NCBI RefSeq assembly: GCF_030013595.1
Contig: NZ_CP122769.1
Length of the DNA: 64,000 nucleotides
Source: Escherichia coli
GTDB taxonomy: Bacteria > Pseudomonadota > Gammaproteobacteria > Enterobacterales > Enterobacteriaceae
Strand: one strand, 5' to 3'
The notes beneath the pieces are model-generated. The model searched no databases and was not told the DNA's origin. It saw only the letters and a program-made list of their open reading frames with translations. Of this stretch, positions 2,930-58,176 are shown piece by piece. Position numbers and translations under genes: made by a program. Position 1 is the stretch's first letter; each line of letters begins with the position of its first letter.

Positions 2930-2949
2930 ACACACCTCTTACAGTCGGA

Positions 2950-5039: not shown

Positions 5040-5042
5040 ATT

Positions 5043-5053: not shown

Positions 5054-5146
5054 TACGGAGAGCATGCCCGCATTATCAGTTCTATGCTTCTCCATTTCTG
5101 CCCCGGGTCAAAGCATTGCACAGTTGGAAGAAAACATGCCGGTCTC

Positions 5147-10578: not shown

Positions 10579-11994
10579 TCAGTTACGTGTGCCACGAATA
10601 CTTTCAGTGAAAGCCTTCCGTTGCAGGCGACGGTTATCCCAGGTTGAAATGACGTCCGAGCTGGTACCGACCTGGCTGTGCGATAGCTCATAGGCGGCTT
10701 TAACCTGTTTTGAGAGATTGTCTGTTAATCGGTTGAGATCATCCCTTTTACCCGACAGCGACTCACTCGGTATGCTCATGGTTGAAATTTTGGCCTCAAC
10801 CTGGCGCAACATGTTGATTACGAGGCTCGTCGCAGCAATAGTGCTTATGTCCTGAATGTATGCGTACCCTTCCGGTGCTTCGAATGTTTGCAAAGAGTCG
10901 ATAATGGTCGGGATGCCGATATAGGAGATAATGCGTAATTCATCATCTGAAACACGAACGTCGTTGATGATTTTTTTCTGTACGTTTAAAAGAAGATCAG
11001 AAATGGTATCCTTCAATCCCTTAAAACCACCGTCATTAACTTCTGACATGACAAGGCACTGAGCCTTTCGTGGGGATGATGGATCTGGTGCCGGAGAACA
11101 CTTGAGCATTTTAATTGATCCGCCAGCTGGTGGCCCCATGATGTAATCCGTGACAGTCATGGTAGACGGGCGGACTTCCATTCCCGCTTTTTCGCCTTTG
11201 CTATCCCAGTTGATAATGACAGTACCCACGAGAGACATAAGTTGTTCTGCCAATTTATAACCGGATAACTCCGTTACCCCTCCGATGTTCATTGTTCCCT
11301 TATCAATATCCATGAACGACATATAGAAGAGGTTACCACTGAATTTTTCAGCGAACTCTTCGGGATCCTTTGCTTTAACCTGAGAAGTGACAGCTTCAGG
11401 TGACTTTGTCATCGATGAGCCAAAATCAGGAATGAGACCATTAATCGATCCCAGAATTGAGGCTGGTCCAGAGCTAACTGAGTTAGCGAACTGGCTTGGC
11501 GTACCCACGTTTTCAGAAAGGAAAGAGTAAGTTGCATTGCATGAATCTTTCGCAAATTTATTTAGCGCTTGCAGTTTGTTTTGGATGTCATTAATCGTTG
11601 CAGCACAGTCAGCACAAATAGCTGAAACAGCAACGTTAAAAGCATAGATAGCCGCACCCTGGGCAATACCACGGGCCACCTGCACAAGCTGGTCCCCGTT
11701 GATCATGCTGAAGGACCCAAGAAAAACGTCAATACCATTACAACCGACAGAAGCTTTTGGAAACGACATGGAAACAAGGTTGGTATTAACGTTTGTTGTT
11801 CGGTAAGACATTGACCCGCCAACTATGCCTGTACGGGTTGCTGTGGAAAAGGTGGCCGGGCTGGTAGACGTCATCATGCCATTGAAAATGTTACGCATTG
11901 CGTTGTCTGCATTTGCAGTCGGGGCTAAAATTGCAGCACAAACAGAAAGAGACAAAAGTAACTTTTTGAAGTTGAAAACGGCATTACTGCGCAT
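10579..11994 (-). CDS. trhH: F-type T4SS protein TraH (IncHI TrhH)
   Basis: Start set at ATG 11994 (MRSNAVFNFKKLLLSLSVCAAILAPTANA signal peptide); SVGCNGIDVFLGSFSMINGDQL matches the TraH GCGGIDxFxGSFSxIN block. Confidence 0.85.
   Translation of the reverse strand: MRSNAVFNFKKLLLSLSVCAAILAPTANADNAMRNIFNGMMTSTSPATFSTATRTGIVGGSMSYRTTNVNTNLVSMSFPKASVGCNGIDVFLGSFSMINGDQLVQVARGIAQGAAIYAFNVAVSAICADCAATINDIQNKLQALNKFAKDSCNATYSFLSENVGTPSQFANSVSSGPASILGSINGLIPDFGSSMTKSPEAVTSQVKAKDPEEFAEKFSGNLFYMSFMDIDKGTMNIGGVTELSGYKLAEQLMSLVGTVIINWDSKGEKAGMEVRPSTMTVTDYIMGPPAGGSIKMLKCSPAPDPSSPRKAQCLVMSEVNDGGFKGLKDTISDLLLNVQKKIINDVRVSDDELRIISYIGIPTIIDSLQTFEAPEGYAYIQDISTIAATSLVINMLRQVEAKISTMSIPSESLSGKRDDLNRLTDNLSKQVKAAYELSHSQVGTSSDVISTWDNRRLQRKAFTESIRGTRN
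11955..11965. repeat. Palindromic box, copy 5 (cAAAAGTAACTTTTTg), inside the trhH signal-peptide codons
   Basis: Read directly; about 20 nt from the trhF stop / trhH start junction. Confidence 0.75.
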
Positions 11995-14137: not shown

Positions 14138-14938
14138 TTAATAATCCTTTAACATAACTTTATTTGTTAAAGTGTTGAACACATCCTGACGGTGACTGGT
14201 GAACATAGTGTCATAACGTAATAGTTCCATCAAATCATCACTAACTTTTCCTAACCGGATGTCAGCAGACAATTCATAAGCCCAGGCAAAAACTTTCGTT
14301 TTAAGTGAAACACTCTCTTCAATATGCCCTTGTGAGAAAGCAATTGTACGTGGGAAAAGAACGACATCGTTAATTGTTTTTAACGATGAATAACCAATGT
14401 CTTTAATAGCATCAGCTGTAGTTGGTTTTAAACCAAAGAAAACACTTACAAACTCTGGTGCGAGCATTGAGATAAAGAACACCTGCATAAAGTAGTCATT
14501 CTGTATATCAACACATTTAGAACGCAACTCATGAATCTTCTTGGGATTATAGATATCCACTGTACCATTCAGAAAAGTCACTTTTTCACCGGCATCGTAA
14601 ATACCATAGTCAATATCATTTGTATCATATTCACGAATTACATTGGAATCACCGTCCAAGACCGCAGAAAAAAACCTCTCCCATGTAATTTCCTTTCCGA
14701 GTGTACGCGGAACCAAAAAACTACCTGGACGTGTTTCCACTTCAAAAGCTAAATCAGCGGCTGTACTAAATCCTTTCCCAAATAGGCGACGCTGGAGAAG
14801 AGGAGTCCCAGTTTGATATGCAGAAGATCCATGCACAGGCAATAACATTAAAAATGCACGGTAACTACGAATAAGCGAAATCTCAGTGCGGAAAAGTTTA
14901 CCGAGTAAGCTACGAGTTAAATTATCAGATTCTGACAT
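14138..14938 (-). CDS. trhR: Transfer activator subunit, C-terminal part weakly FlhD-like (candidate IncHI TrhR)
   Basis: 266-aa ORF, first gene leftward of the divergent region; position matches trhR of the R27 Tra1 map as I recall it; FlhD likeness is an eyeball alignment only. Confidence 0.45.
   Translation of the reverse strand: MSESDNLTRSLLGKLFRTEISLIRSYRAFLMLLPVHGSSAYQTGTPLLQRRLFGKGFSTAADLAFEVETRPGSFLVPRTLGKEITWERFFSAVLDGDSNVIREYDTNDIDYGIYDAGEKVTFLNGTVDIYNPKKIHELRSKCVDIQNDYFMQVFFISMLAPEFVSVFFGLKPTTADAIKDIGYSSLKTINDVVLFPRTIAFSQGHIEESVSLKTKVFAWAYELSADIRLGKVSDDLMELLRYDTMFTSHRQDVFNTLTNKVMLKDY
14574..14584. repeat. Palindromic box, copy 6 (gAAAAGTCACTTTTTc, centre C), inside trhR-candidate CDS
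   Basis: Read directly. Confidence 0.7.
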
Positions 14939-15014
14939 GTGCTGATTGTCCTTGCGCCATTACAATTGTTCAAATCTTCAACATGGATTTTTTGTTAGGT
15001 GTTCGGTAGGGTGA

Positions 15015-15025
15015 AAAGTAACTTT
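15015..15025. repeat. Palindromic box, copy 7 (gAAAAGTAACTTTTag)
   Basis: Read directly; about 80 bp from the trhR-candidate start. Confidence 0.8.
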
Positions 15026-15409
15026 TAGTATTTTCTTAAGGCTTGAATAAGCCTTAAATCTATCCCTTCAACCACACCGCTTACTTGTAACACTTTTTAA
15101 CCAAACTGACCAGAATTTTATCAAAATTTCTTCGCATGCTAACGAAATGTGAAGCGATTAAAAAAAAACCTAAATCCAGCCCCTCCCAACGTTGGATTAG
15201 AATAACGACGTCTTTCACTGACCGTCATAAACTGACATTTTTACTTTTCATCAACCTCATGCTTACATAGGATCACTAAACAAAAGTGTCACTATGGACA
15301 AAGTTCCATAGGGTCATTTTTTTTGGAAAAGTGGCACTAGATATATGTATAACTTTAATAGAGCAATGCACATTATCAAAAGCAATAATCCACAATGGTC
15401 ATTCCCTCA

Positions 15410-15420
15410 AAAGTAACTTT
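15410..15420. repeat. Palindromic box, copy 8 (cAAAAGTAACTTTag)
   Basis: Read directly; about 190 bp upstream of the traH-like start. Confidence 0.8.
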
Positions 15421-15606
15421 AGAGGGTAGCGATGGAAGTGAGGCTAAACTCGCTGTTACTGTTTCTGAAGGCCCCTCCCGAATGGGGGAAACAGCGAGTG
15501 CATTACATCTGTTCAATTCCCTCATCAAAGAGCATTCAAAAATCTTCTGTTCGTGAAAAAAAACGGAAATTTCCTCCGGTATAGTAATTTCACATCAGGA
15601 GGCGTC

Positions 15607-16829: not shown

Positions 16830-19800
16830 ATGATGATGAATTTCAGGGCGCTGTATTTATGTATTAAACGGATTTTGGGGATATTCTCATCTCAGGAGAA
16901 TGATGCAACCTCTGTAATGATTGAGGATATATCAAGCCTCTCTCCTTTTGCGCAGATTCTAGGAGATCAGAAGTACACTGTTCCTGATCATCCAAATCCA
17001 GAAGTCCTGAAATTCATCGAGTATCCAACTCGTCCGACGGGCATACAGACATTTAATGAACAGTCAATCCTGTCTCTGTATCGGGAAAAGCTGCACTCAA
17101 TTTCAATGATGTTAGCTATCAGCGATAGCGACATCAGGGACGATGCATATACATTTACTAATTTAGTATTAAAGCCCTTGGTTGAATATGTTCGCTGGAT
17201 ACATCTTTTGCCAGCTTCCGAAAATCATCATCATAATGGTATTGGTGGGTTACTTTCTCACAGCCTGGAAGTGGCCATACTCTCTTTAAAAAATGCGCAT
17301 CACTCAGAACTGAGACCAATCGGATATCAAGATGAAGAAGTAGTCCGTAGAAAAGTATATCTCTATGCTGCGTTTATCTGTGGTTTAGTCCATGATGCCG
17401 GAAAGGTTTACGATCTCGATATTGTAAGCCTGAATTTAGCTAGTCCGATCATTTGGACGCCAAGCTCACAAAGTCTTCTTGACTGGGCACGTGAAAATGA
17501 CGTGGTTGAATACGAAATCCACTGGCGAAAGCGTATTCATAATCAACATAATATCTGGTCCAGCGTTTTCCTTGAGCGAATCCTAAACCCGGTATGTCTT
17601 GCATTTTTGGATCGGGTAAATAAAGAACGTGTTTATTCAAAAATGATCACCGCCCTAAACGTTTATACTGATGGGAATGACTTTTTGTCTAAATGCGTGA
17701 GGACCGCTGATTTCTATTCTACTGGTACAGACCTTAATGTTTTACGTGACCCTATCATGGGTCTGCGTTCTAATGATGCAGCAGCAAGGGCCATTAGTAC
17801 CATCAAGCACAACTTTACCAGTATCAATATCAACAATTACAATGCTAAGCCTATGCACATCATTATCGTAAATGGTGAGGTATACCTTAACGAGAACGCA
17901 TTCCTTGATTTTGTTCTCAATGATTTCGAATTACATAAATATAACTTCCCTCAGGGAGAGGCTGGTAAGACGGTATTGGTAGAATCCCTAGTTCAACGTG
18001 GTTACGTCGAGCCCTATGATGATGAGCGTGTCGTTCACTACTTCATTCCGGGTATCTATTCGGAAAACGAAATATCAAACATCTTTAGAAATGGGATAGG
18101 GAAACTAGAATTCTATAACCTTCTTAAGCTAAGGTGGATTGGTTTAATCTTTGATTCCTATAAAATCCCTGACTCAGTGCCGGGTCTTTTTAGCGTTAAT
18201 GCCAATAAAGACTTTATTTACATTGACGAGCAAAAAACAGTTACTGAATACAGAAGACCAGTGCCCGGTCGGGACGCTATAACTAAAATTACTGATACTG
18301 TTGAGACGGCTGTTCTTAAGGTTAATGATTTAGGCCGCTCCACTGCCTCTATTGATGTTGATATACATTCTAAGAAAAATGAAGGCTCATCCGACGATTT
18401 TGAGAAGAAAGCCGAAAGTGATAATGAAATTGATAATGACACGCAGATAGTTAAATCTGAGGGTGAGGAAGCAGCTGATCCTGTCATTCCTGATATAGAA
18501 GAAAGTGAAGATGAATCGGCAAAGGACACGGAATCCCATGTCCTGGTCAACCAACTTCATGAACTCCTTTTAAGCGCTCCACTTTCCAATGACTATATAG
18601 TGTGTGTAGATGCTGTCCCCTACCTCAACATAGATGCCACTATGGCATTGCTGCCGGGATTAGATGAAAAAGCATTTAGTGAAGAGCCCTATTTCCAACT
18701 GACATTCAGAGAAGGCTCTCTCGATGGAATGTGGATAGTAAGGGACATTGACGATCTGCGTTTAGTCCAGCTCGGCGATAACTGCGCCGGGTTCCAGCTC
18801 ACCTATCATGAGCCAAGAAGGCCAACAACTTTAAAGTCACTTTTCAATACTTCTATGTATCAGGCATTAGTGATTAATGATGAGTCTTCTGTTGAAAACT
18901 CTGCCCCACGTCCAAAGCAAACGCTTGAGCTGCCTCCCCCACGTGTAAATGCACTCGAAGAACATTCTGGCGACGTGGAATATCATGGAACCGATAGTGC
19001 ATCCGCGACTGGTCCGCTGAAAACTGAGGCTGTGGAATATGAACATTATCAACATCTTTTTGAGGAAGAAGATGAAGAGCATGAGATCATTGATTATACC
19101 GATTTCACACAGCTTAGTGTTTCTCGGCCAGAAGTCGGTAGTTGTGCAACAAGCTCTTCGGTCCATAATGAAAAGCTTCTCCCCGAGCCGTCAGAATTAC
19201 CAGAACTTAACCGAGAACAGAACGCTGATCCCCAGGGTACGATTGAACGCTCTATGGATGTTTCTGTAGGACAAGAAAACTCAGAACCAGATACTGAGGG
19301 TAACTGCCCACCACCAGCTGAAGTTGTGTATTCCCAGACCGAAGCAGCCGCAACCAGTGTGATGGCAAGTGAAGAGCCCGCCTTACCTCCTGTACTTGAA
19401 GAATCAAATGGAGAGCATGCGCCCACAGACGCTAAGGGGCATCATCTTTCGCCAGCACTGGCCAGACTGTTCGCCCCAACAGCACCGGTAGAAAAACAAA
19501 ATCCCAAGCGCAACCGGAATAAATCATCGGACAAAGCAGAAGTACAAAAACCAGCATCACCTGTTTCTGGTCACAATCTGAACAGTAAAGTCTTTGCAAC
19601 TACTGAATCAGACCAAAATGGTGAATTCTCGCTTATAAGCGAAGGTGACGTTACAGAGCTTGAATTTGTAGAAATTGCGTCAGTACTGCATCAAATTCTG
19701 TCCAAAATGGAGGTGGCGTTTAAAAGAAAGCGCAAAAACAGATTTATGGTAAGTACTCCTAATACTCTCTATCTGACCCAATCTTGCGTGGAAAAATTTG

Positions 19801-19982: not shown

Positions 19983-22066
19983 TGTCAGATTCGAAGAGGA
20001 CTAACCTCCATGCACAAGAGAATTTTTATCGGCCTATTCTTGAGTATCGTAGTGCCTCAATACTTTTGATTTGTTCGGTTTCTATGCTTTATATGGGACT
20101 TTCTTCAGACGGACTGGACATCGCCCCAATAGTTCTGTTCACCTCAATATTGCTTTTTTTGCTGTGCCTTTATCGTTGCAAAACAGCAGCGCCATTCTTG
20201 ATGGCTCATTGGCGTGTATTCAAGCGACATTTCATGTTCGTTAGTCTTGATTCACTGCGTGTAATTAACAAAAGTAACTTTTTCTCCAATGAGCGAAAGT
20301 ATCGTCAACTGGTTCAGGATTATCAAAATAAAAATAAGGATATACCCGAGCGAAAGTCCTATTTTTGTGATGGGTTTGAGTGGGGCCCGGAACATGCGGA
20401 TCGGGCATATCAAATAGCTAACCTCTCCAGTGATAAACGTGAGATCGAGTTGCCATTCGTCTTCAACCCAATTAAGAGACATTTTGACGCAATGGCTCGT
20501 AAGATGGGCGGCAGCAATGCAATTTTTGCTGTGGAACGTAGGGAACCCATATTTGTAACTGAAGACAATTGGTTTGGTCATACTCTGATAACCGGAAACG
20601 TGGGTACCGGGAAAACGGTGCTACAGCGTTTACTAAGCATTAGCATGCTTCATCTTGGTCATGTTGTTGTTGTCATAGATCCAAAGAACGATGCAGAGTG
20701 GCGAGAATCTCTAATGGAAGAGGCTAAGACCCTCGGTCTTCCTTTCTATAAATTTCATCCTGGCCAGCCAGCATCTTCGGTCTGTATTGATGTCTGCAAC
20801 ACCTATACTAATGTTTCTGACCTAACATCTCGTCTTTTGAGCTTGGTGACAGTTCCCGGTGAGGTTAACCCATTCGTTCAGTATGCCAAGGCTCTCGTTT
20901 CCAATGTGATTTCCGGGCTTTCTTACATAGAGAAAAAGCCTTCTATTTATCTGATTCACAAGAACATGAAAAGCCACATGTCTATTGTGAATCTTACAGT
21001 CAAGGTAATGGAGTCATGTTACGCGAGATATTATGGTTACGATGTCTGGACCGAAAAAGTTAAGTACGTCGCTAACGAAACCTTGCCGGTACGTTTCAAG
21101 CGTCTCGCTGAATGGTTTACGGCTCATTTCATGAATTACGAGGGGTCCGAACAAATAGACTGGTTAGATACTGTTTCCCAGCTTATTGATTACTCAATGT
21201 CCGACCCAGAGCATATGGCTAAAATGACCGCAGGTATTATGCCTGTTTTCGATATGCTCATTGAAAAACCTTTAAATGAGCTTTTATCTCCTAACCCGAA
21301 CTCAGTATCATCAAGAGAAATTGTAACAAGCGAAGGGATGTTCAGCACTGGCGGGGTGCTATACATTTCGCTTGATGGCCTTTCAAACCCCGATACAGCA
21401 GCTGCTATTTCTCAATTAATAATGTCAGATCTGACCTCCTGTGCCGGTAGTCGCTACAACGCTCAGGATGGTGATATGTCAGCTAATTCCAGGATAAGTA
21501 TTTTTGTTGATGAGGCACACTCAGCCATTAACAACCCTATGATTAACCTTCTGGCGCAGGGTCGTGCAGCGAAAATTGCACTGTTTATTTGCACCCAAAC
21601 CATCTCCGACTTTATTGCTGCGGCAAGTGTTGAAACTGCCAATCGAATTACGGGGCTCTGCAACAATTATATAAGCTTGCGAGTCAACGATACTCCTACT
21701 CAGACGCTTGTTGTAGAGAACTTTGGTAAGAGTGCGATAAGCACAAATATGGTCACTTATACGACCGGTTCAGAAACATCTTTGCCGCATAATAACTTCT
21801 CAGGTTCAATCTCAGAAAGAAAGCAGACAACTTTAGAAGAGAGTATTCCAAAGGATCTCTTGGGTCAGGTCCCTATGTTTCACATAGTTGCCAGGCTTCA
21901 AGATGGCAGGAAGGTTGTAGGCCAAATCCCTATTGCTGTTGCTGAGAAACAAATGAAGCCAAACACAACTCTGTCGGAAATGCTTTTCAAGAAGGCCGGA
22001 AAAGTTACTTTGCGTCAAAATCTCGATATCAAAAATCTTAATAAATTTCTAAGGAAGTTGCATTGA
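19982..22066 (+). CDS. traG: Type IV coupling protein (TraD/TraG-family ATPase; IncHI TraG)
   Basis: 694-aa ORF; N-terminal TM helices; Walker A ITGNVGTGKTV; Walker B SIFVDEAHS; ATG overlaps the traI stop. Confidence 0.85.
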   Translation: MSDSKRTNLHAQENFYRPILEYRSASILLICSVSMLYMGLSSDGLDIAPIVLFTSILLFLLCLYRCKTAAPFLMAHWRVFKRHFMFVSLDSLRVINKSNFFSNERKYRQLVQDYQNKNKDIPERKSYFCDGFEWGPEHADRAYQIANLSSDKREIELPFVFNPIKRHFDAMARKMGGSNAIFAVERREPIFVTEDNWFGHTLITGNVGTGKTVLQRLLSISMLHLGHVVVVIDPKNDAEWRESLMEEAKTLGLPFYKFHPGQPASSVCIDVCNTYTNVSDLTSRLLSLVTVPGEVNPFVQYAKALVSNVISGLSYIEKKPSIYLIHKNMKSHMSIVNLTVKVMESCYARYYGYDVWTEKVKYVANETLPVRFKRLAEWFTAHFMNYEGSEQIDWLDTVSQLIDYSMSDPEHMAKMTAGIMPVFDMLIEKPLNELLSPNPNSVSSREIVTSEGMFSTGGVLYISLDGLSNPDTAAAISQLIMSDLTSCAGSRYNAQDGDMSANSRISIFVDEAHSAINNPMINLLAQGRAAKIALFICTQTISDFIAAASVETANRITGLCNNYISLRVNDTPTQTLVVENFGKSAISTNMVTYTTGSETSLPHNNFSGSISERKQTTLEESIPKDLLGQVPMFHIVARLQDGRKVVGQIPIAVAEKQMKPNTTLSEMLFKKAGKVTLRQNLDIKNLNKFLRKLH
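20271..20281. repeat. Palindromic box, copy 10 (cAAAAGTAACTTTTTc), inside traG
   Basis: Read directly. Confidence 0.7.
22001..22011. repeat. Palindromic box, copy 11 (ggAAAAGTTACTTTgc), 3' end of traG
   Basis: Read directly; 55 nt before the next gene start. Confidence 0.7.
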
Positions 22067-26739: not shown

Positions 26740-26902
26740 AATGCCCTCCTTTGTATGTGATTATTATACCTGCTTCCATTGCAGGCCAAACAGGTTCGGT
26801 GTATGAAAAATAGACTTCTCTCCGGCGTATAGCAATCTACTTACTGATCTGTTTTCGTATCAAACTGTATGGCATAACCGAGGGGCGTACGTGGTGAGTC
26901 AG

Positions 26903-26913
26903 AAAGTTACTTT
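26903..26913. repeat. Palindromic box, copy 12 (cagAAAGTTACTTTTcc)
   Basis: Read directly; intergenic, about 165 bp upstream of the 26739 start. Confidence 0.8.
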
Positions 26914-27095
26914 TCCGTAATAGTTAATTTCAGATCCTTCTTCCAGTTACGCTTCAGTATAAAACCGATACCCTCTAATTCAGCATCCTTCACGTTTAAT
27001 ACGCTTCACTTTAAGGCAGGGCTTTTCGGTTGATATGAATTCTTTTTCCGGTTGCTGGACATGGGTTTCATCCTGATAGTTAAAATTGCAGGCTA

Positions 27096-30370: not shown

Positions 30371-30739
30371 TTACCCTTCAAATCCAAAGACGAAACGGAC
30401 GCTGCCGTTCTCCACGTGGAGACGCTTTACTTCTTCGACAAATTCCTGGATCACCTCTCCGGCGTTATCGGGTGGTATGGCTGACAAAATTTCTTCCGAA
30501 GTCAGCCATGAGTATGAATGTTCACCGAATAAATCATCATCTTCGGACGGTATATCATCAGGTAATCCGCGTAATGCGTGGATAAAAACTGCTGATGTGC
30601 TCGCCCTTTCACGATCTACATCAAATCCGAGCCAGGCAAAGTGGAGATATGATCGGTCCCCTTTATAATTGCTTGATAAATTAATCCATTTACCAGGCTT
30701 TTCTTCCCTTTGAAATCGCCAGCAGATATCAACGCCCAT
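30371..30739 (-). CDS. Hypothetical protein
   Basis: 122-aa ORF with weak SD; no motif recognised. Confidence 0.5.
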   Translation of the reverse strand: MGVDICWRFQREEKPGKWINLSSNYKGDRSYLHFAWLGFDVDRERASTSAVFIHALRGLPDDIPSEDDDLFGEHSYSWLTSEEILSAIPPDNAGEVIQEFVEEVKRLHVENGSVRFVFGFEG

Positions 30740-30903
30740 TAAGAAACTCCATTACTATCGTTCGTATGAGATAACTATCATTTCAGAATACTATGACTTC
30801 TTCCCGTATAGAACTAATCGCTCACGCCAACTGGGCGAAGCCAACCGGTTCCGCCACTTCGCTCATTGGTTTTTAGGCGTAAGCACTGAAGCCAGTCTCC
30901 ATG

Positions 30904-31446
30904 CTAACTGGCGAGCCTGCGAAAGTCAGACTCGTTGTTATAAAGCGGCATATCGTAAGCGGTGTCTGAAATGAACATGCGGATCTGCTCAAGCGTCATG
31001 CCACAATGAAAACGGTTTACGCTCACATTGGCCCGGGGGAAGTCAGCACAAAACGCATTCAAAACATTTTCATGGACAATGCCAATGTTGATCAACGCAG
31101 CTGGCCCGTTGTCACGGAAGGATACGACACGGAATCCCCCATACCAGCCTGAATGGGAGAAAAATGAAAATGCGCCGGATGCCAGACCATTAGACAGGTC
31201 ATAGCGCAATTTCCCGCACAGAGACTGGCTGTCTTTGCTGTACACGCGATTAATGAAAATACCGGGACCAACTTCTACCGGCTGCTTGTTGCTTGCTAAA
31301 CACGGAAAGCCCACCAGCGAAACCTCCCTTTCTCCTGACCAGTTTACCTGATACCCGGCAGTGAGAAAGTCCGTCAGTTCTACGCCAGAAAGAGCATTAA
31401 TGGCCGCGATATCGGTAGTCAAAATATTTACGTTTTTCATATTCAT
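30904..31446 (-). CDS. Hypothetical protein
   Basis: 180-aa ORF; no motif recognised. Confidence 0.55.
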   Translation of the reverse strand: MNMKNVNILTTDIAAINALSGVELTDFLTAGYQVNWSGEREVSLVGFPCLASNKQPVEVGPGIFINRVYSKDSQSLCGKLRYDLSNGLASGAFSFFSHSGWYGGFRVVSFRDNGPAALINIGIVHENVLNAFCADFPRANVSVNRFHCGMTLEQIRMFISDTAYDMPLYNNESDFRRLAS

Positions 31447-31507
31447 CTCATCTTTATTCTAAAGTGCGTTTTTTGTCTATCAGCCCGAGGATTGAAAATT
31501 TGAATAT

Positions 31508-31945
31508 TTAATGTGACAGATAAATACCTGTCACTTTTTCAAAAACAGCCTGTAATTGAATATCGAGAGAGTTCATTTTAAAATCCACCAGCTCAGCTTT
31601 ATTATCGCAAACCAAATAAAAATAGGAGTCAAATGCGTCTGTATCTTCATCTTTAAAAATACGGAAGGAATTAATTTTATCATGCCCTTCAAATTCGGCA
31701 TGAATACCATAGCGAACCGAGCCGTCATCGAACTGAACAACCCGTCGTACAGAATTAATCCGGACGTACTGTTTTAAGGCCCTCGCGAAATCGGCATTTA
31801 ACGCCAACGCTCGTAAGATTGAATCAGCGGTTTCATTCTGCTTTTTACGATCGTATTCAAATATCCCACAGCCGGTGTTACGAAAGACCGGCTGAAGAGC
31901 ATTAACCAGGTTGAAGGAATCCACGTTTCTGTCGTTTCTGTACAT
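31508..31945 (-). CDS. Hypothetical protein
   Basis: 145-aa ORF; AGGAG SD. Confidence 0.6.
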   Translation of the reverse strand: MYRNDRNVDSFNLVNALQPVFRNTGCGIFEYDRKKQNETADSILRALALNADFARALKQYVRINSVRRVVQFDDGSVRYGIHAEFEGHDKINSFRIFKDEDTDAFDSYFYLVCDNKAELVDFKMNSLDIQLQAVFEKVTGIYLSH

Positions 31946-31989
31946 GAGATATCTCCTGCCCCTCCGCTATACGAAGGGGCTTGATAGGG

Positions 31990-32286
31990 TTACTGCCAGG
32001 CTGCGATCACTTCTTCGCACTGGAAATGAGATAAGCACTGCTGGAGTAGAAGAGCCAGCACCGCTGTGTTAGGGACGCGATTGTTACACCACGCGTTGAA
32101 AAGCAGCTGCCATGGACCGGCATAATACCCGGCCAGTTTCTTTTTTTGTTTAGCTGTACGGCAGCGGGAAATGGCCTGCTGATAAAGGCTTTCATTCTCA
32201 TCACCAGCCCGTTTTTGCAGAGTGCGATAAATATACGAATAAAGACTGTCAGAACAGTTTGAAGCGTACGCCAGTTGTTTTTTCAT
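31990..32286 (-). CDS. Hypothetical protein
   Basis: 98-aa ORF; AGGAGG SD; conserved promoter module directly upstream. Confidence 0.6.
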   Translation of the reverse strand: MKKQLAYASNCSDSLYSYIYRTLQKRAGDENESLYQQAISRCRTAKQKKKLAGYYAGPWQLLFNAWCNNRVPNTAVLALLLQQCLSHFQCEEVIAAWQ

Positions 32287-32306
32287 AATACCTCCTGTTT
32301 AGAAGT

Positions 32307-32344
32307 ATTATATGTAAACAGCCTCAGCGGCTAATAACCCGTAG
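32307..32344 (-). promoter_or_regulatory. Conserved promoter module, copy 1
   Basis: Minus strand CGGGTTATTAGCC, 16 nt, TATAAT; about 20 nt upstream of the 31990..32286 SD. Confidence 0.6.
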
Positions 32345-32406
32345 CAATATAATTTGCATTTTTTCTATTTCTGAAGACGCTTTTTAAATTAATATTTACT
32401 GAGTTA

Positions 32407-32685
32407 TCACAACTTATTATTCTTCCCGTCTGCTGTTTTATTAATCCCCCAGTTAGTAATCACGCCAAGTCGGCGCAATTTTTCACGTTGTTCATAAATA
32501 AAAAAATCGCCAAGGCAGTCTTTTAAAACTTCACTATCCTGATATTTTATTTTTTGAAGCATCCTCGCAACTATGGCGCGTTTCAGGAATATGGCTGCAT
32601 CAGACTCAAGCATTTGTGAGGACTGTCTGACGGTCTCCTGCATGTCGACGATACTGCTGAGCTTTCGTCTGACCACGCTTAGCAT
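32407..32685 (-). CDS. Hypothetical protein (start uncertain)
   Basis: 92-aa ORF; no clear SD at any of three candidate ATGs. Confidence 0.4.
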   Translation of the reverse strand: MLSVVRRKLSSIVDMQETVRQSSQMLESDAAIFLKRAIVARMLQKIKYQDSEVLKDCLGDFFIYEQREKLRRLGVITNWGINKTADGKNNKL

Positions 32686-32869
32686 AGTGTCCGGGAACCG
32701 CTTAGCGGCTGAATGTAACCCGCAACAACGTTACGCATTGTTTTACTCACTGCAATTTTCCATTTAAGTCTGTTTGTTCCACCAGCTGCTAACATCAGCG
32801 TTATTCATCCTGAGGTTTCGCCCGCGATTGACAGATCAGAGGCAGCATGGATGAAATTGCCAGAGTAGA

Positions 32870-33151
32870 TCACTGCATACGCGAATAGTGGTTTGTATTC
32901 AGTTCTGCGTTTGCCTGCTTTTCCAGTGCTGTCATAACCCGGCGGAGCATCGCCAGAGCCTGAACAGGCGAGCTCCCAAACTGCACTTTCACTTCAGCCG
33001 TATCATGATCCTGAATCAGGTCGAGTATATTCACTTCGATCCCTGCCCCGTTTTCATCTTTTGCCGTGCACTGAATACTTACCCGGGTCACCGAATCCGT
33101 CAGGACTGGCAGTGGGTTAGTTTTGTCTACGTTGATAACAGCCTTCTTCAT
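32870..33151 (-). CDS. Hypothetical protein downstream of ParB-like gene
   Basis: 93-aa ORF; purine-rich SD region. Confidence 0.55.
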   Translation of the reverse strand: MKKAVINVDKTNPLPVLTDSVTRVSIQCTAKDENGAGIEVNILDLIQDHDTAEVKVQFGSSPVQALAMLRRVMTALEKQANAELNTNHYSRMQ

Positions 33152-33216: not shown

Positions 33217-34401
33217 TCATGACTGTCCCTTGTTCATCTTATCAGCATGCTTACGCAGGTACTCTTTCAGGTCAGCATGAGCGTTGATGATATCGTTCAT
33301 TTCATCATTGGTCAGAACAAGCGTGTAAGTATCAGTACTGACAGATTCACCTTCTTTAAGCTTGGCTTCTTCAGCAATACGTTCAAAAATCGGGATCGCG
33401 GTGTCTGCAATGACGGTCACAGTCTTTTTGTTCAGAACGCTGGACATGGAAGGTGCTTTACCTGCCGGGTTCTGTTTAGGAGCGCTGTCCTTTGGAGCTG
33501 GAGCCGGTTCCTGTACCGGTGGCGTATCCAGCGTCTCCGTATTGCTTTCATCGTTCAGTTGATCCGGTACCGGGGTGTTATCGGTAGTATCATCTGCCGG
33601 TTGCTCAGCACCGATGTTTTCCGGAGTCTGCGGATCTGCCATGCGCTCTTCTACCTTGGCAGCTTTGACGAATTTCAGCGTGTTTTTCGTCGCCTTGCCA
33701 TAGATGGAGATCGCTTTGTTGATGTTATCTACCGCATCCTCACCGCTGTACATATACTCGTCCAGTGCAACGTACATGCTCACCTGATCGCTCACAAGCA
33801 TGGTCTGTAGTTCAGAAGGCAGGTCCAGTACGCGAACCATCTGGCGAAGATGCTGCTCTGATTTACCACGTTTTTTTGCCAGTTCCGCAAAGGTCTTAGG
33901 CTCTTCTTTATCTTCAACCAGACGCTTAATTGAAAGCGCTTCAGCTACGACAGACAGCGCCAGGTTGGAGTTGCCGGTCAGGGTGAAGAGTTCTGCTTTT
34001 GAAGCGCTACCGCGAAACTCTTCGCAGCGAATACGAGTAATGCGTTCACGCCCTTCTGCTTCCAGCTGGCGGTTTGCAATAGCGATGGAACGGATACGGC
34101 AAGCCCCCTGACGCAGTACAGGTACGCCATTAACCATCTGAACAACGATAGGCGTCACGCTGAACGGGTCTTCCATGTAGGCATCGGCCAGGCTGTTCAG
34201 GTGTTCCACAACGTGAGGCATTGAATAGTAGAGCTCGCCCATACCGGCCGTGCGGGTGTTAAAGCCTTCCTGCTCTACAACAACCGAAGGGTCAATGATA
34301 AGGCCGTTGCCTTTACGGGCACCGTTACCAGTGCGTTCCAGGTAACCACGAAGGCTGATTTCGTTGCTGTTGTTTTTTACTTCAGTTTCGATTGCGGACA
34401 T
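33217..34401 (-). CDS. Orphan ParB/KorB-like DNA-binding protein (no adjacent ParA)
   Basis: 394-aa ORF; ParB N-domain arginine patch variant VLRQGACRIRSIAIA (cf. GERRxRA); HTH-like FAELAKKRGKSEQHLRQMVRVLDLP; acidic/Pro linker; C-terminal domain. Confidence 0.65.
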   Translation of the reverse strand: MSAIETEVKNNSNEISLRGYLERTGNGARKGNGLIIDPSVVVEQEGFNTRTAGMGELYYSMPHVVEHLNSLADAYMEDPFSVTPIVVQMVNGVPVLRQGACRIRSIAIANRQLEAEGRERITRIRCEEFRGSASKAELFTLTGNSNLALSVVAEALSIKRLVEDKEEPKTFAELAKKRGKSEQHLRQMVRVLDLPSELQTMLVSDQVSMYVALDEYMYSGEDAVDNINKAISIYGKATKNTLKFVKAAKVEERMADPQTPENIGAEQPADDTTDNTPVPDQLNDESNTETLDTPPVQEPAPAPKDSAPKQNPAGKAPSMSSVLNKKTVTVIADTAIPIFERIAEEAKLKEGESVSTDTYTLVLTNDEMNDIINAHADLKEYLRKHADKMNKGQS

Positions 34402-34446
34402 TTTTGTTCTCTTTTTTGGTTGGTTGTTTAACTGCGCTACAACACA

Positions 34447-34484
34447 ACAATACCAGGTTCGACATTTTTCCTAATAGGTTGCGG
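34447..34484 (-). promoter_or_regulatory. Conserved promoter module, copy 2 (variant) driving ParB-like gene
   Basis: Minus strand CAACCTATTAGGA, 16 nt, TATTGT; a palindromic box starts 8 bp upstream of it. Confidence 0.5.
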
Positions 34485-34491
34485 AGAAGAA

Positions 34492-34502
34492 AAAGTAACT
34501 TT
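34492..34502. repeat. Palindromic box, copy 13 (gaAAAAGTAACTTTTTt), abutting the ParB-like promoter
   Basis: Read directly. Confidence 0.85.
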
Positions 34503-34617
34503 TTTTAAAAATTTTCCTGAGGCAATACTACTCGATCCGTCCGTTTTAAATCTTCACAACAGTGGGCCGTTTTTACGTTTAAGCAAAATAACTGGTTCAG
34601 AAGGTGACTCAGAGAGA

Positions 34618-34628
34618 AAAGTTACTTT
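34618..34628. repeat. Palindromic box, copy 14 (gAAAAGTTACTTTTCc)
   Basis: Read directly; 126 bp from copy 13 in the same intergenic region. Confidence 0.85.
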
Positions 34629-34816
34629 TCCGGTTGTCTGGGCCAGTGATGGGAGAGTGGCAGGACAGGAATGGCTAAACCGGTGCGGGTCTCTTGTAAG
34701 TCGCAGGGGATTCAGGAGATATAGAGGTAAACTGGTACGTTCAGTTTTTGGATTGAGCCGGGCTTTTGGCCCGGGCTTAAGGAAGCAGAAATTTGAACGA
34801 ACTGGCAGGTAATGCT

Positions 34817-43600: not shown

Positions 43601-43740
43601 CGGTTGCCTTCCATTCAGGGAGAATTCTCAGTAATTACATCACACCTGAAGAGAAACTATTTTCGTATAAATGAGCATTTTCGACATATCAGAGGGGGGG
43701 TTTACTCATAAATGAGGTAGTAAGGGTCACACTTGAGGTG

Positions 43741-43751
43741 AAAGTTACTTT
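43741..43751. repeat. Palindromic box, copy 15 (gAAAGTTACTTTcc)
   Basis: Read directly; intergenic. Confidence 0.8.
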
Positions 43752-43779
43752 CCTGGCTGCGAACGAACTATCTCAAATG

Positions 43780-45796: not shown

Positions 45797-45947
45797 GAAT
45801 AGAACCTATACAGTTAGAGAACTGGAGAATGGATAAAGACTCTATGAAAATCAGTTGTGCTACACTCGAATGCTAATCAAGCTTTATGATGGCTTTAGTA
45901 GGGATGGCCGTCAACTTAAACCGATAAGAAGGGAGCCATTTATCGTT

Positions 45948-45958
45948 AAAGTAACTTT
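45948..45958. repeat. Palindromic box, copy 16 (ttAAAGTAACTTTcccgg)
   Basis: Read directly; intergenic. Confidence 0.8.
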
Positions 45959-45975
45959 CCCGGATGATGCTCTTT

Positions 45976-48546: not shown

Positions 48547-48678
48547 TGATGATCCTTTTGTTTAGTTCCCCGATTCCGGGGGTGAGTGAATTAATTTAAA
48601 TTTATATTTGTCTGGTTTAATTAGAACGTTTCCAGGCTATGCGTAAACAGGTAATGCAAAGGCTGTATCAACAGGATT

Positions 48679-48689
48679 AAAGTTACTTT
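48679..48689. repeat. Palindromic box, copy 17 (ttAAAGTTACTTTTctgg)
   Basis: Read directly; intergenic. Confidence 0.8.
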
Positions 48690-48795
48690 TCTGGATGCAG
48701 CAACGCTTGGACATGATGTCCACATTACATCACGATCAAAGCTAAGTTTTTTTTGTATAACCCCTTCATTTTCGTGTGTTTCGCGTTTCAGACGC

Positions 48796-53598: not shown

Positions 53599-53727
53599 AA
53601 AAAATATTGCATATTTTTGAAGTGTAGGATAATGATTAGAATAAAATGGCCTGAATAAATCGTTAGCTTTAACTCTGCTTATTTCAGAAAAACTCTGAAT
53701 TAGTAGTGATGGAAAACGACGCGGTGA

Positions 53728-53738
53728 AAAGTAACTTT
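53728..53738. repeat. Palindromic box, copy 18 (ggtgAAAAGTAACTTTTacacc)
   Basis: Read directly; 130 bp upstream of promoter module copy 7; flanks extend the palindrome (GGTG..CACC). Confidence 0.85.
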
Positions 53739-53762
53739 TACACCGCAATTCAGAAAAAAGTT

Positions 53763-57830: not shown

Positions 57831-57939
57831 AGCAAATTTTCAGAAAAAAAACACCGCCTTTTATTTAAGATTGAACACATCCTTTTTAAATACCAACAAT
57901 GATTATGAAACCACAATGTAAGTGAAGCGCCATTATGGA

Positions 57940-57950
57940 AAAGTAACTTT
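57940..57950. repeat. Palindromic box, copy 19 (ggAAAAGTAACTTTTgtg)
   Basis: Read directly; 110 bp upstream of promoter module copy 8. Confidence 0.85.
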
Positions 57951-58176
57951 TGTGCAGCTCATAAATTTTATTTATTAGTTACGTTCCTTTGTCTTGTGGT
58001 CGAAGTTCATCAGGCGAGGCCTAAGAAGAATATGTGTGGTTTCAGCCAATGCGGTGATCGGGCATTATAATTTGGTCGGGCTATTATACGTGGGTAAAGG
58101 TAGTGGTAGGGAGAGGATCAGGTTAAATTGCATTTTCCCGGTTGCCTTCCCTGGCCTACCGGTTTCAGGTCAGACG

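What the first reader, a model, noticed from the sequence alone, without database searches (positions are those of the whole stretch)
33217..34631. Orphan ParB/KorB-like protein with two palindromic boxes in its own upstream region: candidate global regulator
The 394-aa product has these parts:
- a ParB N-domain with a degenerate arginine patch (QGACRIRS versus GERRxRA);
- an HTH-like segment (FAELAKKRGKSEQHLRQMVRVLDLP);
- an acidic/Pro-rich linker;
- a separate C-terminal domain.

No ParA gene lies next to it.

Its 415-bp upstream region carries box copies at 34492 and 34618. The first starts 8 bp from the -35-proximal end of the predicted promoter (34447..34484). That is the geometry of an autoregulated operator.

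An orphan ParB-like protein plus many dispersed palindromic sites parallels the KorB/OB arrangement of IncP plasmids. The link between this protein and the box is inferred from adjacency only.
Basis: inference. Interest (0 to 1): 0.7.

Follow-up and report, generated by a model that had tools for sequence, protein, structure and literature searches.

The report
Orphan ParB-like regulator with dispersed operator
An uncharacterised ParB-fold DNA-binding protein of IncHI resistance megaplasmids sits behind two copies of a 13-bp palindrome that occurs about 49 times across the plasmid backbone, often in front of conjugation and other operons; it probably forms a KorB-like plasmid-wide control network, but whether this protein is what binds the palindrome is still unproven.

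Summary
The window is an IncHI2 plasmid (R478/pSTM6-275 type). The 394-aa ORF (33217-34401, minus strand) is real. By fold it has a full ParB/KorB architecture: ParB N-domain, ParB HTH, 66-aa acidic/Pro-rich disordered linker, small C-terminal domain. No ParA lies nearby. The phosphate motif is GACRIR (KorB: GARRYR).

Both boxes exist (34491-34503, 34617-34629). The core AAAGT-N-ACTTT is the dominant palindrome on the plasmid:
- 49 copies, 46 of them in the 170-kb backbone.
- 54% are intergenic.
- Copies lie upstream of trhA, trhF, trhR, traH/oriT and parM.

Across five orthologue clades (36-100% identity) a box or box-like site lies about 100-130 bp before the ATG. Four clades have two or more boxes upstream.

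The protein-box link is still inferred. The plasmid has two more orphan ParB-like paralogues, and one has its own conserved near-box. Deletion variants lacking this gene keep the boxes. Klebsiella prophages carry box triplets without needing a ParB gene nearby. The claimed sigma-70 promoter was not detected; only an extended -10-like element is conserved.

Verdict: observation mostly confirmed, interpretation partly supported, apparently undescribed. It is a new variant of the KorB/VirB kind.

The parts
33217..34401 (-). Gene for the 394-aa orphan ParB-fold protein (R27 orthologue = R0104; WP_001272970.1)
   Evidence: ORF; 100% match to the annotated CDS; family and fold evidence.
33967..34353 (-). 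ParB/Srx-type N-terminal domain (aa 17-145), containing GFNTR (aa 46-50) and the RQGACRIR phosphate-loop motif (aa 97-104 = nt 34090-34113)
   Evidence: AF2 pLDDT 84-93. Foldseek hits to CTP-bound ParB/KorB/Noc. Invariant columns. KorB motif GARRYR for comparison.
33637..33966 (-). ParB-type HTH DNA-binding domain (aa 146-255); recognition helix S181-E-Q-H-L-R-Q187
   Evidence: Pfam PF17762 E=7e-6. PDB phmmer hit to Caulobacter ParB DBD. hhalign to Spo0J, probability 92%. H184 and R186 invariant.
33439..33636 (-). Disordered acidic/Pro-rich linker (aa 256-321)
   Evidence: pLDDT <50. 13 Pro, 13 Asp/Glu, net charge -10. Length-variable in homologues.
33220..33438 (-). Conserved C-terminal domain (aa 322-394), probable dimerisation module
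   Evidence: Conserved blocks KKTVT..DTAIP and TYTLVLTNDEM. Two helices predicted at low confidence. Function is inferred by analogy with the ParB/KorB C-terminal domains.
34491..34503 (.). Proximal box AAAAGTAACTTTT, 90 bp upstream of the ATG
   Evidence: It is the best-conserved block of the upstream region across IncHI2, IncHI1 and Klebsiella plasmids.
34617..34629 (.). Distal box AAAAGTTACTTTT, 216 bp upstream of the ATG
   Evidence: A second upstream box is present in the IncHI-type orthologue loci and in L241.
34447..34455 (-). Extended -10-like element TGGTATTGT (putative promoter; weak evidence)
   Evidence: Conserved between IncHI2 and IncHI1. No full sigma-70 consensus found by the scan.
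30371..33151 (-). Six co-directional small ORFs downstream of the gene (possible operon; no known domains)
   Evidence: ORFs. No Pfam hits. The R27 counterparts R0105-R0112 are mostly not expressed, so co-transcription is doubtful.
484..496 (.). Box copy (GAAAGTAACTTTA; core exact), between the umuC stop and a convergent DsbA-family gene
   Evidence: mapping.
2048..2060 (.). Box copy (exact), intergenic between convergent small genes
2949..2961 (.). Box copy (exact), at a gene junction upstream of a small ORF and downstream of a thioredoxin-fold gene
5042..5054 (.). Box copy (1 mismatch), just after the HAD-domain gene stop
11954..11966 (.). Box copy (exact), at the 3' end of trhH
14573..14585 (.). 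Box copy (exact), inside the trhR homologue
15014..15026 (.). Box copy (exact), 76 bp upstream of trhR in the divergent trhR / traH-mobI (oriT) region; position conserved in R27
15409..15421 (.). Box copy (1 mismatch), about 200 bp upstream of mobI/traH (H operon); position conserved in R27
18832..18844 (.). Box copy (1 mismatch), inside the MobH relaxase gene
20270..20282 (.). Box copy (exact), inside the coupling-protein gene traD/traG
22000..22012 (.). Box copy (1 mismatch), at the 3' end of traD/traG
26902..26914 (.). Box copy (1 mismatch), intergenic, about 160 bp upstream of a small minus-strand ORF
43740..43752 (.). Box copy (core exact, both flanks mismatched), intergenic
45947..45959 (.). 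Box copy (core exact, both flanks mismatched), intergenic
48678..48690 (.). Box copy (1 mismatch), intergenic, about 130 bp upstream of a small ORF and downstream of the PAPS-reductase-family gene
53727..53739 (.). Box copy (exact), intergenic, about 200 bp upstream of a small ORF
57939..57951 (.). Box copy (exact), intergenic, about 170 bp upstream of a small ORF
62107..62119 (.). Box copy (1 mismatch), inside an Ig-like-domain gene
63142..63154 (.). Box copy (exact), in window-specific sequence not shared with pSTM6-275

Best explanation
The gene encodes an orphan ParB-CTPase-fold DNA-binding protein, the R0104 family of IncHI-type megaplasmids. Its architecture matches KorB: N-domain, ParB HTH, long flexible linker, C-terminal dimerisation module.

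Most likely it binds as a dimer, through its HTH, to the 13-bp palindrome a-AAAGT-W-ACTTT-t. It would autoregulate through the two boxes 90 and 216 bp upstream of its start codon. It would also act at about 49 box sites spread over the plasmid backbone, about half of them 60-250 bp upstream of operons. These include the conjugation operons headed by trhA, trhF, trhR and traH/mobI, plus parM. That makes it a plasmid-wide transcriptional co-ordinator, either a repressor like KorB or an H-NS anti-silencer like VirB.

Shown: fold and architecture, reality and distribution of the box, and conserved gene-box linkage.

Inferred: that this protein, rather than a paralogue, binds the box; the sign of regulation; and any nucleotide-dependent clamp or sliding behaviour. 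The phosphate loop is GACRIR (KorB: GARRYR). It keeps two of three arginines and the KorB-like Ala, but has an invariant Cys. The ENLQR-type motif appears to have lost its Glu and Arg. Nucleotide binding is therefore possible but uncertain.
For: Fold and architecture:
- (KorB-KorA 8qa9 and CTP-bound ParB are the top structural matches).
- KorB architecture and GARRYR motif.

The box is the only strongly over-represented palindrome on the plasmid:
- 23 exact 13-mers against a maximum of 2 in Markov simulations.
- 49 core copies against 0.32 for composition-matched controls.
- 46 copies in the 170-kb backbone against 3 in 106 kb of accessory DNA.
- 25 of 46 are intergenic, against 18% expected (p=5e-8), or 30% for AT-matched controls (p=4.5e-4).
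- Flanks are not conserved, so it is not a mobile repeat.

Gene-box linkage is conserved over deep divergence:
- IncHI1/R27, 65% identity: 2-3 boxes.
- Buttiauxella type, 48%: 2 boxes.
- Klebsiella, 35-36%: 5 boxes.
- P0035/P0180 type, 36%: a box-like site at -109, plus a perfect box at -277 in L241.
- The proximal site is always 100-130 bp before the ATG, and it is the best-conserved block of the upstream region.

Other points:
- H184 and R186 of the recognition helix are invariant in all orthologues. The paralogue-2/L035 clade has variable helices at similar divergence.
- The canonical ParA-linked ParB belongs to a different family (PHROG 1146) and has no box within about 800 bp of its cassette (nearest core box 824 bp downstream of parB).
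- The R27 orthologue R0104 is strongly and constitutively expressed: 2196 and 2155 units at 25 and 37 C.
Against: - No direct binding evidence.
- No covariation. The box is identical in every relative found, so adjacency cannot be separated from shared ancestry.
- Two paralogues of the same PHROG-1033 family are on the plasmid. Paralogue 2 (R27 R0042, even more highly expressed) has a conserved 1-mismatch box at -79/-96.
- Variants lacking this gene (pCF10-tmexCD1, p1194_11_1) retain many boxes, so the gene is dispensable for plasmid maintenance.
- Klebsiella lambdoid prophages carry box triplets, in two cases with no ParB-like gene within 12 kb. Only 4 of 76 prophages with the related ParB have boxes. 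Something acting in trans must recognise the boxes there.
- The H-x-R feature of the helix also occurs in the IncC orphan, whose plasmid region lacks the box.
- No sigma-70 consensus promoter was found.
Confidence: 0.5

Rival explanations
1. The box is the operator or loading site of a paralogue, the R0042/L035-type orphan ParB-like protein encoded near the Dam methylase and Tra2 end. The gene in the window is only one of its most tightly controlled targets, and its own DNA site, if any, is different.
For: - The paralogue family is present in every box-bearing plasmid examined, including the two variants that lack the window gene.
- It has its own conserved near-box upstream: AAAAGTACCTTTT at -79/-96, and two 1-mismatch boxes at -118/-297 in p1194_11_1.
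- R0042 is among the most highly expressed R27 genes (6132 units; 20561 in the htdA mutant).
- It has the same fold family, PHROG 1033.
Against: - Its recognition helix is not conserved between lineages that share an identical box (PTTISS, STTIAA, EMAVRQ, EQNIRS, AVTVTN).
- Its own upstream sites are imperfect, whereas the window gene always has perfect ones.
- The two orthologue-less plasmids are sporadic recent deletions: 7 of 8 sampled plasmids with the identical paralogue also carry the orthologue.
Confidence: 0.2
2. The box is recognised by a factor unrelated to ParB. Candidates are another plasmid regulator (for example the TrhR/TrhY/HtdA conjugation circuit) or a chromosomal enterobacterial protein. 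The ParB-like gene merely lies behind two such sites.
For: - Boxes lie upstream of the TrhR/TrhY-dependent tra operons (trhA, trhF, trhR, traH).
- Box triplets occur in Klebsiella prophages with no ParB-like gene in cis, as expected for a factor supplied in trans.
- TrhR, TrhY and HtdA have no recognisable domains, so they cannot be excluded.
Against: - Most boxes are outside tra regions.
- 13-16-bp perfect palindromes are the typical targets of dimeric ParB-type HTH proteins.
- IncC plasmids, which live in the same hosts, lack the box.
- The box is nearly absent from 106 kb of accessory DNA on the same plasmid.
- RepB was tested and rejected: it has different iterons.
Confidence: 0.15
3. The protein is a true partition (centromere-binding) protein that works in trans with the plasmid's ParA, with the boxes serving as dispersed parS sites.
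For: - ParB fold and dimeric architecture.
- Dispersed parS-like sites are known for chromosomal ParB.
Against: - No adjacent ParA. The plasmid's ParA has its own ParB, and there is a ParMR system as well.
- No ParA-interaction motif [LFI]G[KR]G[LFI].
- TIGR00180 scores below its cut-off.
- The gene is lost in roughly 10% of related plasmids.
- Sites are enriched at promoters rather than clustered.
Confidence: 0.05
4. The protein is a leading-region 'establishment' or anti-defence factor. It would act early in the recipient, using its ParB/Srx-like N-domain with the invariant Cys for an enzymatic or nucleotide-dependent role, and it would not be a global regulator.
For: - The gene lies in an array of small ORFs next to Tra1, together with methyltransferases, a PAPS-reductase-family gene, HNH, DUF3085/DUF957 and Hok.
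- Distant relatives sit beside PsiA, an N6/N4 methyltransferase and an AcrVA2-like gene.
- The invariant Cys occupies the position of the catalytic Cys of sulfiredoxin-type relatives (this is inference; the Srx fold hit 6ky4 is weak, E=0.05).
Against: - A complete ParB HTH and a dimerisation domain argue for site-specific DNA binding.
- R0104 is constitutively and highly expressed in established R27 cells.
- This reading does not explain the conserved boxes.
- It is compatible with, rather than exclusive of, the main explanation.
Confidence: 0.1

Closest known systems
KorB of IncP-1 plasmid RK2 (ParB-CTPase-fold global repressor; operator OB)
   Same: - Top structural match: 8qa9, TMt 0.65.
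- Same order of parts: N-domain, HTH DBD, about 50-65-aa flexible linker, C-terminal domain.
- Ala at the Glu position of GERRxR: KorB GARRYR against GACRIR here.
- A palindromic operator present many times on the plasmid, some promoter-proximal and some distal or intragenic. KorB has 12 sites, 4-10 bp or 45 to >1000 bp from promoters; here there are about 49 sites.
   Different: - No sequence-level membership: no KorB Pfam domains are detected, only HTH_ParB.
- No IncC/ParA partner and no N-terminal ParA-binding peptide.
- No adjacent KorA-like gene: the flanking small ORFs have no known domains.
- The first Arg of the phosphate loop is replaced by an invariant Cys.
- There are three paralogues on one plasmid.
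- Binding to the box is unproven.
VirB of the Shigella virulence plasmid (orphan ParB-like, CTP-dependent H-NS anti-silencer)
   Same: - An orphan ParB-fold protein on a large AT-rich enterobacterial plasmid.
- It acts from inverted-repeat sites upstream of promoters without a ParA (papers listed; general knowledge).
- IncHI plasmids are heavily H-NS/Hha-regulated and encode their own H-NS and Hha.
   Different: - VirB is related to P1-type ParB and binds a different site.
- No evidence was obtained here for anti-silencing or for CTP binding.
- R0104 is not thermoregulated.
BisD of ICEclc (ParB-like CTP clamp that activates genes at a distance)
   Same: An orphan ParB-like regulator of a conjugative element that controls transfer genes from specific loading sites (preprint listed).
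   Different: It belongs to a different element family, and it is an activator working with partner proteins. No homology beyond the fold was tested here.
Noc / chromosomal ParB with dispersed sites
   Same: ParB fold (7ol9, 6sdk, 6t1f among the top hits), and many dispersed palindromic sites on one replicon.
   Different: Noc and ParB keep GERRxRA and ENLQR. Noc has a membrane-targeting N-terminus, and ParB works with ParA. Neither feature is found here.
PHROG 1033 'ParB-like partition protein' family (prophage and plasmid orphan ParB-likes, including the IncC orphan ParB and R27 R0042)
   Same: This is the best sequence-family match: E=1.6e-21 for this protein, 1e-23 to 4e-70 for relatives. 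Members share the [VIL]RQG[HAN]CRxR-type loop.
   Different: None of these proteins has an assigned function. The prophage members do not travel with the box (4 of 76 loci), and the IncC orphan's plasmid region lacks the box.

Membership tests
KorB family (IncP-1 global repressor) | KorB-specific sequence domains (KorB DNA-binding and C-terminal domains in Pfam) | tested here: not met
   A Pfam scan at E<=1 returns only HTH_ParB PF17762. The resemblance is at fold level only.
KorB family (IncP-1 global repressor) | Encoded in a korA-incC(parA)-korB operon, with an N-terminal IncC/ParA-binding peptide | tested here: not met
   No ParA in the window or adjacent. No [LFI]G[KR]G[LFI] motif. Neighbouring small ORFs have no domains.
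KorB family (IncP-1 global repressor) | CTP binding and hydrolysis via GARRYR/N146, and clamp closure on operator DNA | not testable with these tools
   The motif is GACRIR, with invariant G99, C101, R102, R104 and N144. Biochemistry is needed.
KorB family (IncP-1 global repressor) | Binds a palindromic operator present at many promoter-proximal and distal sites on its plasmid | tested here: inconclusive
   The sites exist and are distributed in this way. The conserved gene-box linkage is seen. Binding by this protein is not shown, and paralogues are rival binders.
Canonical ParB of ParABS partition systems (TIGR00180) | Score above the TIGR00180 cut-off, with GERRxRA and ENLQR motifs | tested here: not met
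   TIGR00180 scores 29.5 bits against a cut-off of 58.45, and only the HTH region aligns. The motif is GACRIRS. GNSNLAL replaces ENLQRxDL; this is my manual alignment anchored on the hhalign match.
Canonical ParB of ParABS partition systems (TIGR00180) | Adjacent parA and a ParA-interaction motif | tested here: not met
ParB/Srx-fold N-domain plus ParB HTH superfamily | N-domain fold followed by a ParB-type HTH domain | tested here: met
   AF2 model aa 17-255 at pLDDT about 85-93. Foldseek E=3e-8 to 1e-5 against ParB, KorB, Noc and Spo0J over 190-230 columns. Pfam HTH_ParB.
PHROG 1033 ParB-like proteins | Significant match to the PHROG 1033 profile over the N-domain and HTH | tested here: met
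   E=1.6e-21, aa 24-255. Paralogues and relatives also match.
VirB-like anti-silencers | Relief of H-NS silencing from a cis site, dependent on CTP | not testable with these tools
   Only context is available: AT-rich plasmid encoding H-NS and Hha.

The most novel reading that the evidence does not exclude
IncHI-family megaplasmids may run a plasmid-wide control network in which up to three paralogous orphan ParB-fold proteins share one 13-bp loading site. These proteins have an unusual Cys-containing phosphate loop and may be switched by a nucleotide other than CTP, or by redox state. The shared site occurs about 49 times and would co-ordinate conjugation, maintenance and leading-region genes. 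Klebsiella prophages would carry triplet copies of the same plasmid operator as a sensor or decoy, and the plasmids' own type IV CRISPR arrays target that region.
Probability: 0.12. Interest if true: 0.85.

Novelty: new variant of a known kind. Interest (0 to 1): 0.6.

Why it matters
IncHI1, IncHI2 and IncHI1B/FIB(Mar) plasmids carry typhoid multidrug resistance, mcr-1/mcr-9 and carbapenemases. The DNA sites through which their backbone and thermosensitive conjugation genes are co-ordinated are not defined.

A single, deeply conserved 13-bp operator lies in front of the trhA, trhF, trhR and traH/oriT regions and of dozens of uncharacterised operons. Together with a small set of candidate ParB-fold binders, it gives a directly testable handle on global regulation of these plasmids.

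If the protein is a nucleotide-switched clamp with a Cys-substituted phosphate loop, it would also extend the known range of the ParB-CTPase switch. The prophage and CRISPR link hints at operator-level cross-talk between plasmids and phages.

Tried and rejected
1. **Covariation of box with protein.** I searched 185k species genomes, the plasmid collection and a 1.84-billion-protein library. Every relative with context has the same box, so no covariation test was possible.

2. **Phage support.** I first inferred that a PHROG-1033 prophage ParB travels with box triplets, because 5 of 7 loci had both. The reverse test (4 of 76 loci) and a phage with boxes but no ParB show the two are independent mosaic modules. 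I withdrew the inference.

3. **Metagenome scan for box pairs**. More than 120 loci were found, but most are unrelated tandem repeats or iterons, for example the Rep_3 iterons AACGTTCAAAAAGTCACTTTT. The scan was uninformative.

4. **RepB-family initiator as binder.** Rejected. The metagenomic Rep is unrelated to IncHI RepB, and the IncHI2 repB region has its own TGAATG-type iterons.

5. **'Lineage with boxes but no orthologue'** (p1194_11_1, pCF10). These turned out to be sporadic deletion variants.

6. **TrhR/TrhY/HtdA as binders.** They have no recognisable domains, so they can be neither supported nor excluded.

7. **RNA hairpin or terminator reading of the box.** Rejected by inspection: a 6-1-6 palindrome leaves a 1-nt loop, and half the copies are intragenic on either strand.

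8. **Sigma-70 promoter at 34447-34484.** Not found by the scan.

9. **Profile alignment of the N-domain to Spo0J and PDB sequences.** Only the HTH aligns, so the motif correspondence in the N-domain rests on the fold match and manual alignment.

10. **Literature.** No paper in the searchable library mentions the box sequence or R0104.
Full report
**What the window is.**
Window 33100-35300 is 100% identical to many 210-280-kb conjugative IncHI2 (MOBH, MPF_F) plasmids of E. coli, Salmonella and Enterobacter, such as pSTM6-275. I assembled that plasmid from six fetched pieces. The window is collinear with plasmid positions 176699-238034, apart from three differences:
- an IS66-family insertion at window 27205-29734;
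- a small repeat-number difference in the oriT region;
- a replaced segment at 38212-40581.

The gene lies about 5 kb beyond the end of the Tra1 (mobI-mobH-traD...) operon. It sits at the head of a run of small unannotated ORFs.

**The protein.**
The 394-aa ORF (33217-34401, minus strand) is annotated 'hypothetical' or 'DNA-binding protein'.
- Sequence methods see only the HTH. Pfam HTH_ParB covers aa 149-209 at E=7e-6. TIGR00180 scores below its cut-off. PDB phmmer hits cover only the ParB DNA-binding domain.
- The phage-protein library places aa 24-255 in PHROG 1033, 'ParB-like partition protein' (E=1.6e-21).
- An AlphaFold model built on 20 homologues is confident for aa 17-255. It is disordered for aa 256-321 and of low confidence for a helix-strand-helix C-terminal module.
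- Foldseek against the PDB returns only ParB-fold proteins over both the N-domain and the HTH. These are CTP-gamma-S-bound Myxococcus ParB, the KorB-KorA complex 8qa9 (TMt 0.65, rmsd 5.1 over 232 columns), Noc, Spo0J and Caulobacter ParB.

The 'degenerate arginine patch' is RQGACRIR. G99, C101, R102 and R104 are invariant in all orthologues, as are GFNTR and N144. KorB itself has Ala at the Glu position (GARRYR) and is still a DNA-stimulated CTPase. The distinctive change here is therefore Arg to an invariant Cys. My manual alignment, anchored on the hhalign match, suggests that the Glu and Arg of the ENLQR motif are also lost.

No ParA-interaction motif is present.

**The family is small.**
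- About 30 clusters at 90% identity, all from large Enterobacterales plasmids.
- 11 loci among 185,579 species genomes.
- 428 clusters at E<=1e-3, and 13 at E<=1e-30, among 1.84 billion representatives.

**The box.**
Both upstream copies are present, at 34491-34503 and 34617-34629.

On the whole plasmid, AAAAGT-N-ACTTTT is by far the most over-represented palindrome. There are 23 exact copies against at most 2 in Markov-simulated sequences. The other frequent palindromes are probably within repeated IS copies (not checked), and the second short motif found is the RepHI2 iteron.

The core AAAGT-N-ACTTT occurs 49 times:
- 46 copies are in 169.6 kb of backbone, and 3 are in about 106 kb of accessory DNA.
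- Composition-matched control motifs average 0.32 hits.
- 25 of 46 are intergenic, where 18% is expected (p=5e-8), or 30% for AT-matched controls (p=4.5e-4).

Flanks are not conserved beyond a 65% A/T at position +/-6 and a weak G/C preference at +/-7. The centre is A or T in 86% of sites. A 6-1-6 palindrome cannot form a useful hairpin, so this is a protein-binding site on duplex DNA.

Intergenic copies lie 60-250 bp upstream of start codons. They include those of trhA, trhF, trhR, traH/mobI (the oriT region) and parM. The two oriT-region positions are conserved in R27. The window holds 21 copies.

**Comparative evidence for a gene-box link.**
The same box is the top palindrome in every other orthologue locus examined, and it clusters upstream of the orthologue:

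| Lineage | Protein identity | Boxes upstream of the orthologue |
|---|---|---|
| IncHI1, including R27 | 65% | 2, at -106 and -224 |
| Pseudocitrobacter | 64% | 3 |
| Buttiauxella | 48% | 2 |
| Klebsiella FIB/HI1B-type plasmids | 35-36% | 5 |
| New plasmid type with the shorter relatives P0035/P0180 | 36% | box-like site at -109 in both; perfect box at -277 in L241 |

The proximal box is the best-conserved block in otherwise diverged upstream regions.

It is still not proof. The box never changes, so there is no covariation.

**Complications.**
1. tblastn showed two further orphan ParB-like paralogues on the IncHI2 plasmid, at 269897-271060 and 274270-275325. These are in addition to the canonical ParA/ParB and ParM/ParR cassettes. 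All three orphans belong to PHROG 1033, whereas the ParA-linked ParB belongs to PHROG 1146.
2. Paralogue 2 corresponds to R27 R0042. I assigned this from its position next to the Dam methylase and a zinc-finger gene. It has a conserved one-mismatch box 79-96 bp upstream.
3. Two plasmids lack the window gene but keep many boxes: pCF10-tmexCD1 and p1194_11_1. In p1194_11_1 the Tra1-adjacent slot holds unrelated genes and an IS1, and only one PHROG-1033 gene exists in 199 kb. The identical paralogue co-occurs with the orthologue in 7 of 8 sampled plasmids. These are therefore recent deletions. They show that the gene is dispensable, not who binds the box.
4. At comparable divergence the orthologue clade keeps S/T, H, [LIV] and R in the recognition helix. 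The paralogue-2/L035 clade does not. This favours the orthologue. However, H-x-R also occurs in the IncC orphan, whose plasmid region has no box, so the argument is weak.

**Phages and metagenomes.**
A scan for paired boxes found box triplets at a 48-bp period in Klebsiella lambdoid prophages. They lie about 480 bp upstream of a 97-aa ORF followed by ninB, ninG and Q.

A PHROG-1033 ParB gene lies 2-3 kb away in 5 of 7 testable loci, and I first read this as independent support. The reverse test removed that support. Only 4 of 76 prophages encoding that ParB have boxes, and phage ST16-OXA48phi5.1 has the triplet with no ParB-like gene within 12 kb. The boxes in phages must therefore be read in trans, which keeps a non-ParB or plasmid-supplied binder in play.

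More than 120 metagenomic box-pair loci are mostly unrelated iterons and tandem repeats. RepB was excluded as the binder.

**Expression.**
By gene order the R27 orthologue is R0104: flmA/Hok is R0101, two small ORFs follow, and then comes the 401-aa gene. In the published R27 microarrays it gives 2196 and 2155 units at 25 and 37 C, and 5624 and 2597 in the derepressed htdA mutant (PMC7366339 supplement). It is therefore strongly and constitutively expressed. The small ORFs downstream are mostly silent.

**Promoter.**
A TGGTATTGT extended -10-like element at 34447-34455 is conserved between IncHI2 and IncHI1. If it is used, the proximal box centre lies about 45-57 bp upstream of the -10 and the start site. 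That placement is compatible with either repression or activation.

**Comparison with known systems.**
The closest analogue is KorB of RK2. It shares the domain order, the flexible linker and the Ala in the phosphate loop. It also has a palindromic operator at 12 sites, either 4-10 bp or 45 to >1000 bp from promoters, and it acts as a CTP-dependent sliding clamp locked by KorA.

VirB and BisD are other orphan ParB-fold regulators of mobile elements.

Membership in the KorB family or in the canonical ParB family fails on the sequence and context criteria. What holds is membership of the ParB-fold superfamily and of PHROG 1033.

IncC plasmids offer a parallel. A different palindrome, TTTCACATGTGAAA, is dispersed there, with one copy 62 bp upstream of a parA / KorB-domain gene pair.

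**Conclusion.**
I consider it likely that one or more IncHI orphan ParB-fold proteins read the box. My rough estimates for the binder are:
- the window protein: about 0.5;
- paralogue 2: about 0.2;
- another factor: about 0.15.

Nucleotide switching and the sign of regulation are open.

Noticed in passing
L006:40349-41512 (-) and L006:44722-45777 (-) (pSTM6-275 269897-271060 and 274270-275325; outside the window): Two further orphan ParB-like paralogues (387 and 351 aa, PHROG 1033, HTH_ParB) on the same IncHI2 plasmid. Paralogue 2 (R27 R0042, very highly expressed) has a conserved one-mismatch box, AAAAGTACCTTTT, 79-96 bp upstream.
   Followed up: partly
L031:9521-9630; L036:12823-12910; L023, L026, L028-L030, L032, L034: Klebsiella lambdoid prophages carry three copies of the same 13-bp box at a 48-bp period (27/48 bp in L036). 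They lie about 480 bp upstream of a conserved 97-aa ORF followed by ninB-ninG-Q, and they occur independently of any ParB-like gene in cis.
   Followed up: partly
L008:30540-31390 (Klebsiella plasmid NZ_CP034040.1): The plasmid's CRISPR array (repeat GTATTCCCCCCGTATGCGGGGGTTATCGG, next to Cas6 and helicase genes) has four spacers with 97-100% matches to that prophage family. One overlaps a box of the triplet, and another abuts a box in L024.
   Followed up: partly
window:27205-29734: IS66-family element (141-aa, 116-aa and 537-aa ORFs) inserted in the window relative to pSTM6-275.
   Followed up: partly
window:15282-15333 (oriT intergenic region): The alignments to pSTM6-275 overlap here, and the window is about 90 bp shorter. 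This suggests a repeat-copy-number difference between trhR and mobI.
   Followed up: no
L006:30444-31644 (pSTM6-275 259992-261192): An array of TGACAAYGGTA-containing repeats, many at an 81-bp spacing, next to repHI2 (iterons). It is the second most frequent short motif on the plasmid.
   Followed up: no
L009: 290, 3874, 4333, 9648, 12984, 24028, 27443 (IncC plasmid Pp138-NDM): IncC plasmids lack the IncHI box but have a different dispersed palindrome, (C)TTTCACATGTGAAA(G). One copy lies 62 bp upstream of a parA / KorB-domain gene pair, which may be an analogous KorB-like network.
   Followed up: no
L002:23302-23856 (+), with boxes at 23092 and 23286: The third gene of the htdA operon region gives a near-threshold Whirly (ssDNA-binding) Pfam hit (E=1.2e-4, 22.4 bits against a cut-off of 23). 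Two exact boxes lie immediately before it.
   Followed up: no
L240 and L241 (Logan contigs SRR5240292_184 and SRR27755640_6236): The nearest non-IncHI relatives (318 and 323 aa) lie in leading-region-like arrays with PsiA, an Mrr_N/N6_N4 methyltransferase, an AcrVA2-like protein and HigB. This suggests the family is typical of plasmid leading or anti-defence regions.
   Followed up: partly
L029:10341-10598 vs L021:1194-1451; L023:2597-2806 vs L008:8632-8841: Small ORFs of the prophage nin region are 77-80% identical at protein level to small ORFs in the Klebsiella plasmid small-ORF arrays. This indicates gene exchange between these phages and plasmids.
   Followed up: no
window:38212-40581: This segment is not shared with pSTM6-275, which has IS421, a Hok toxin gene and IS150 at the corresponding place.
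   Followed up: no
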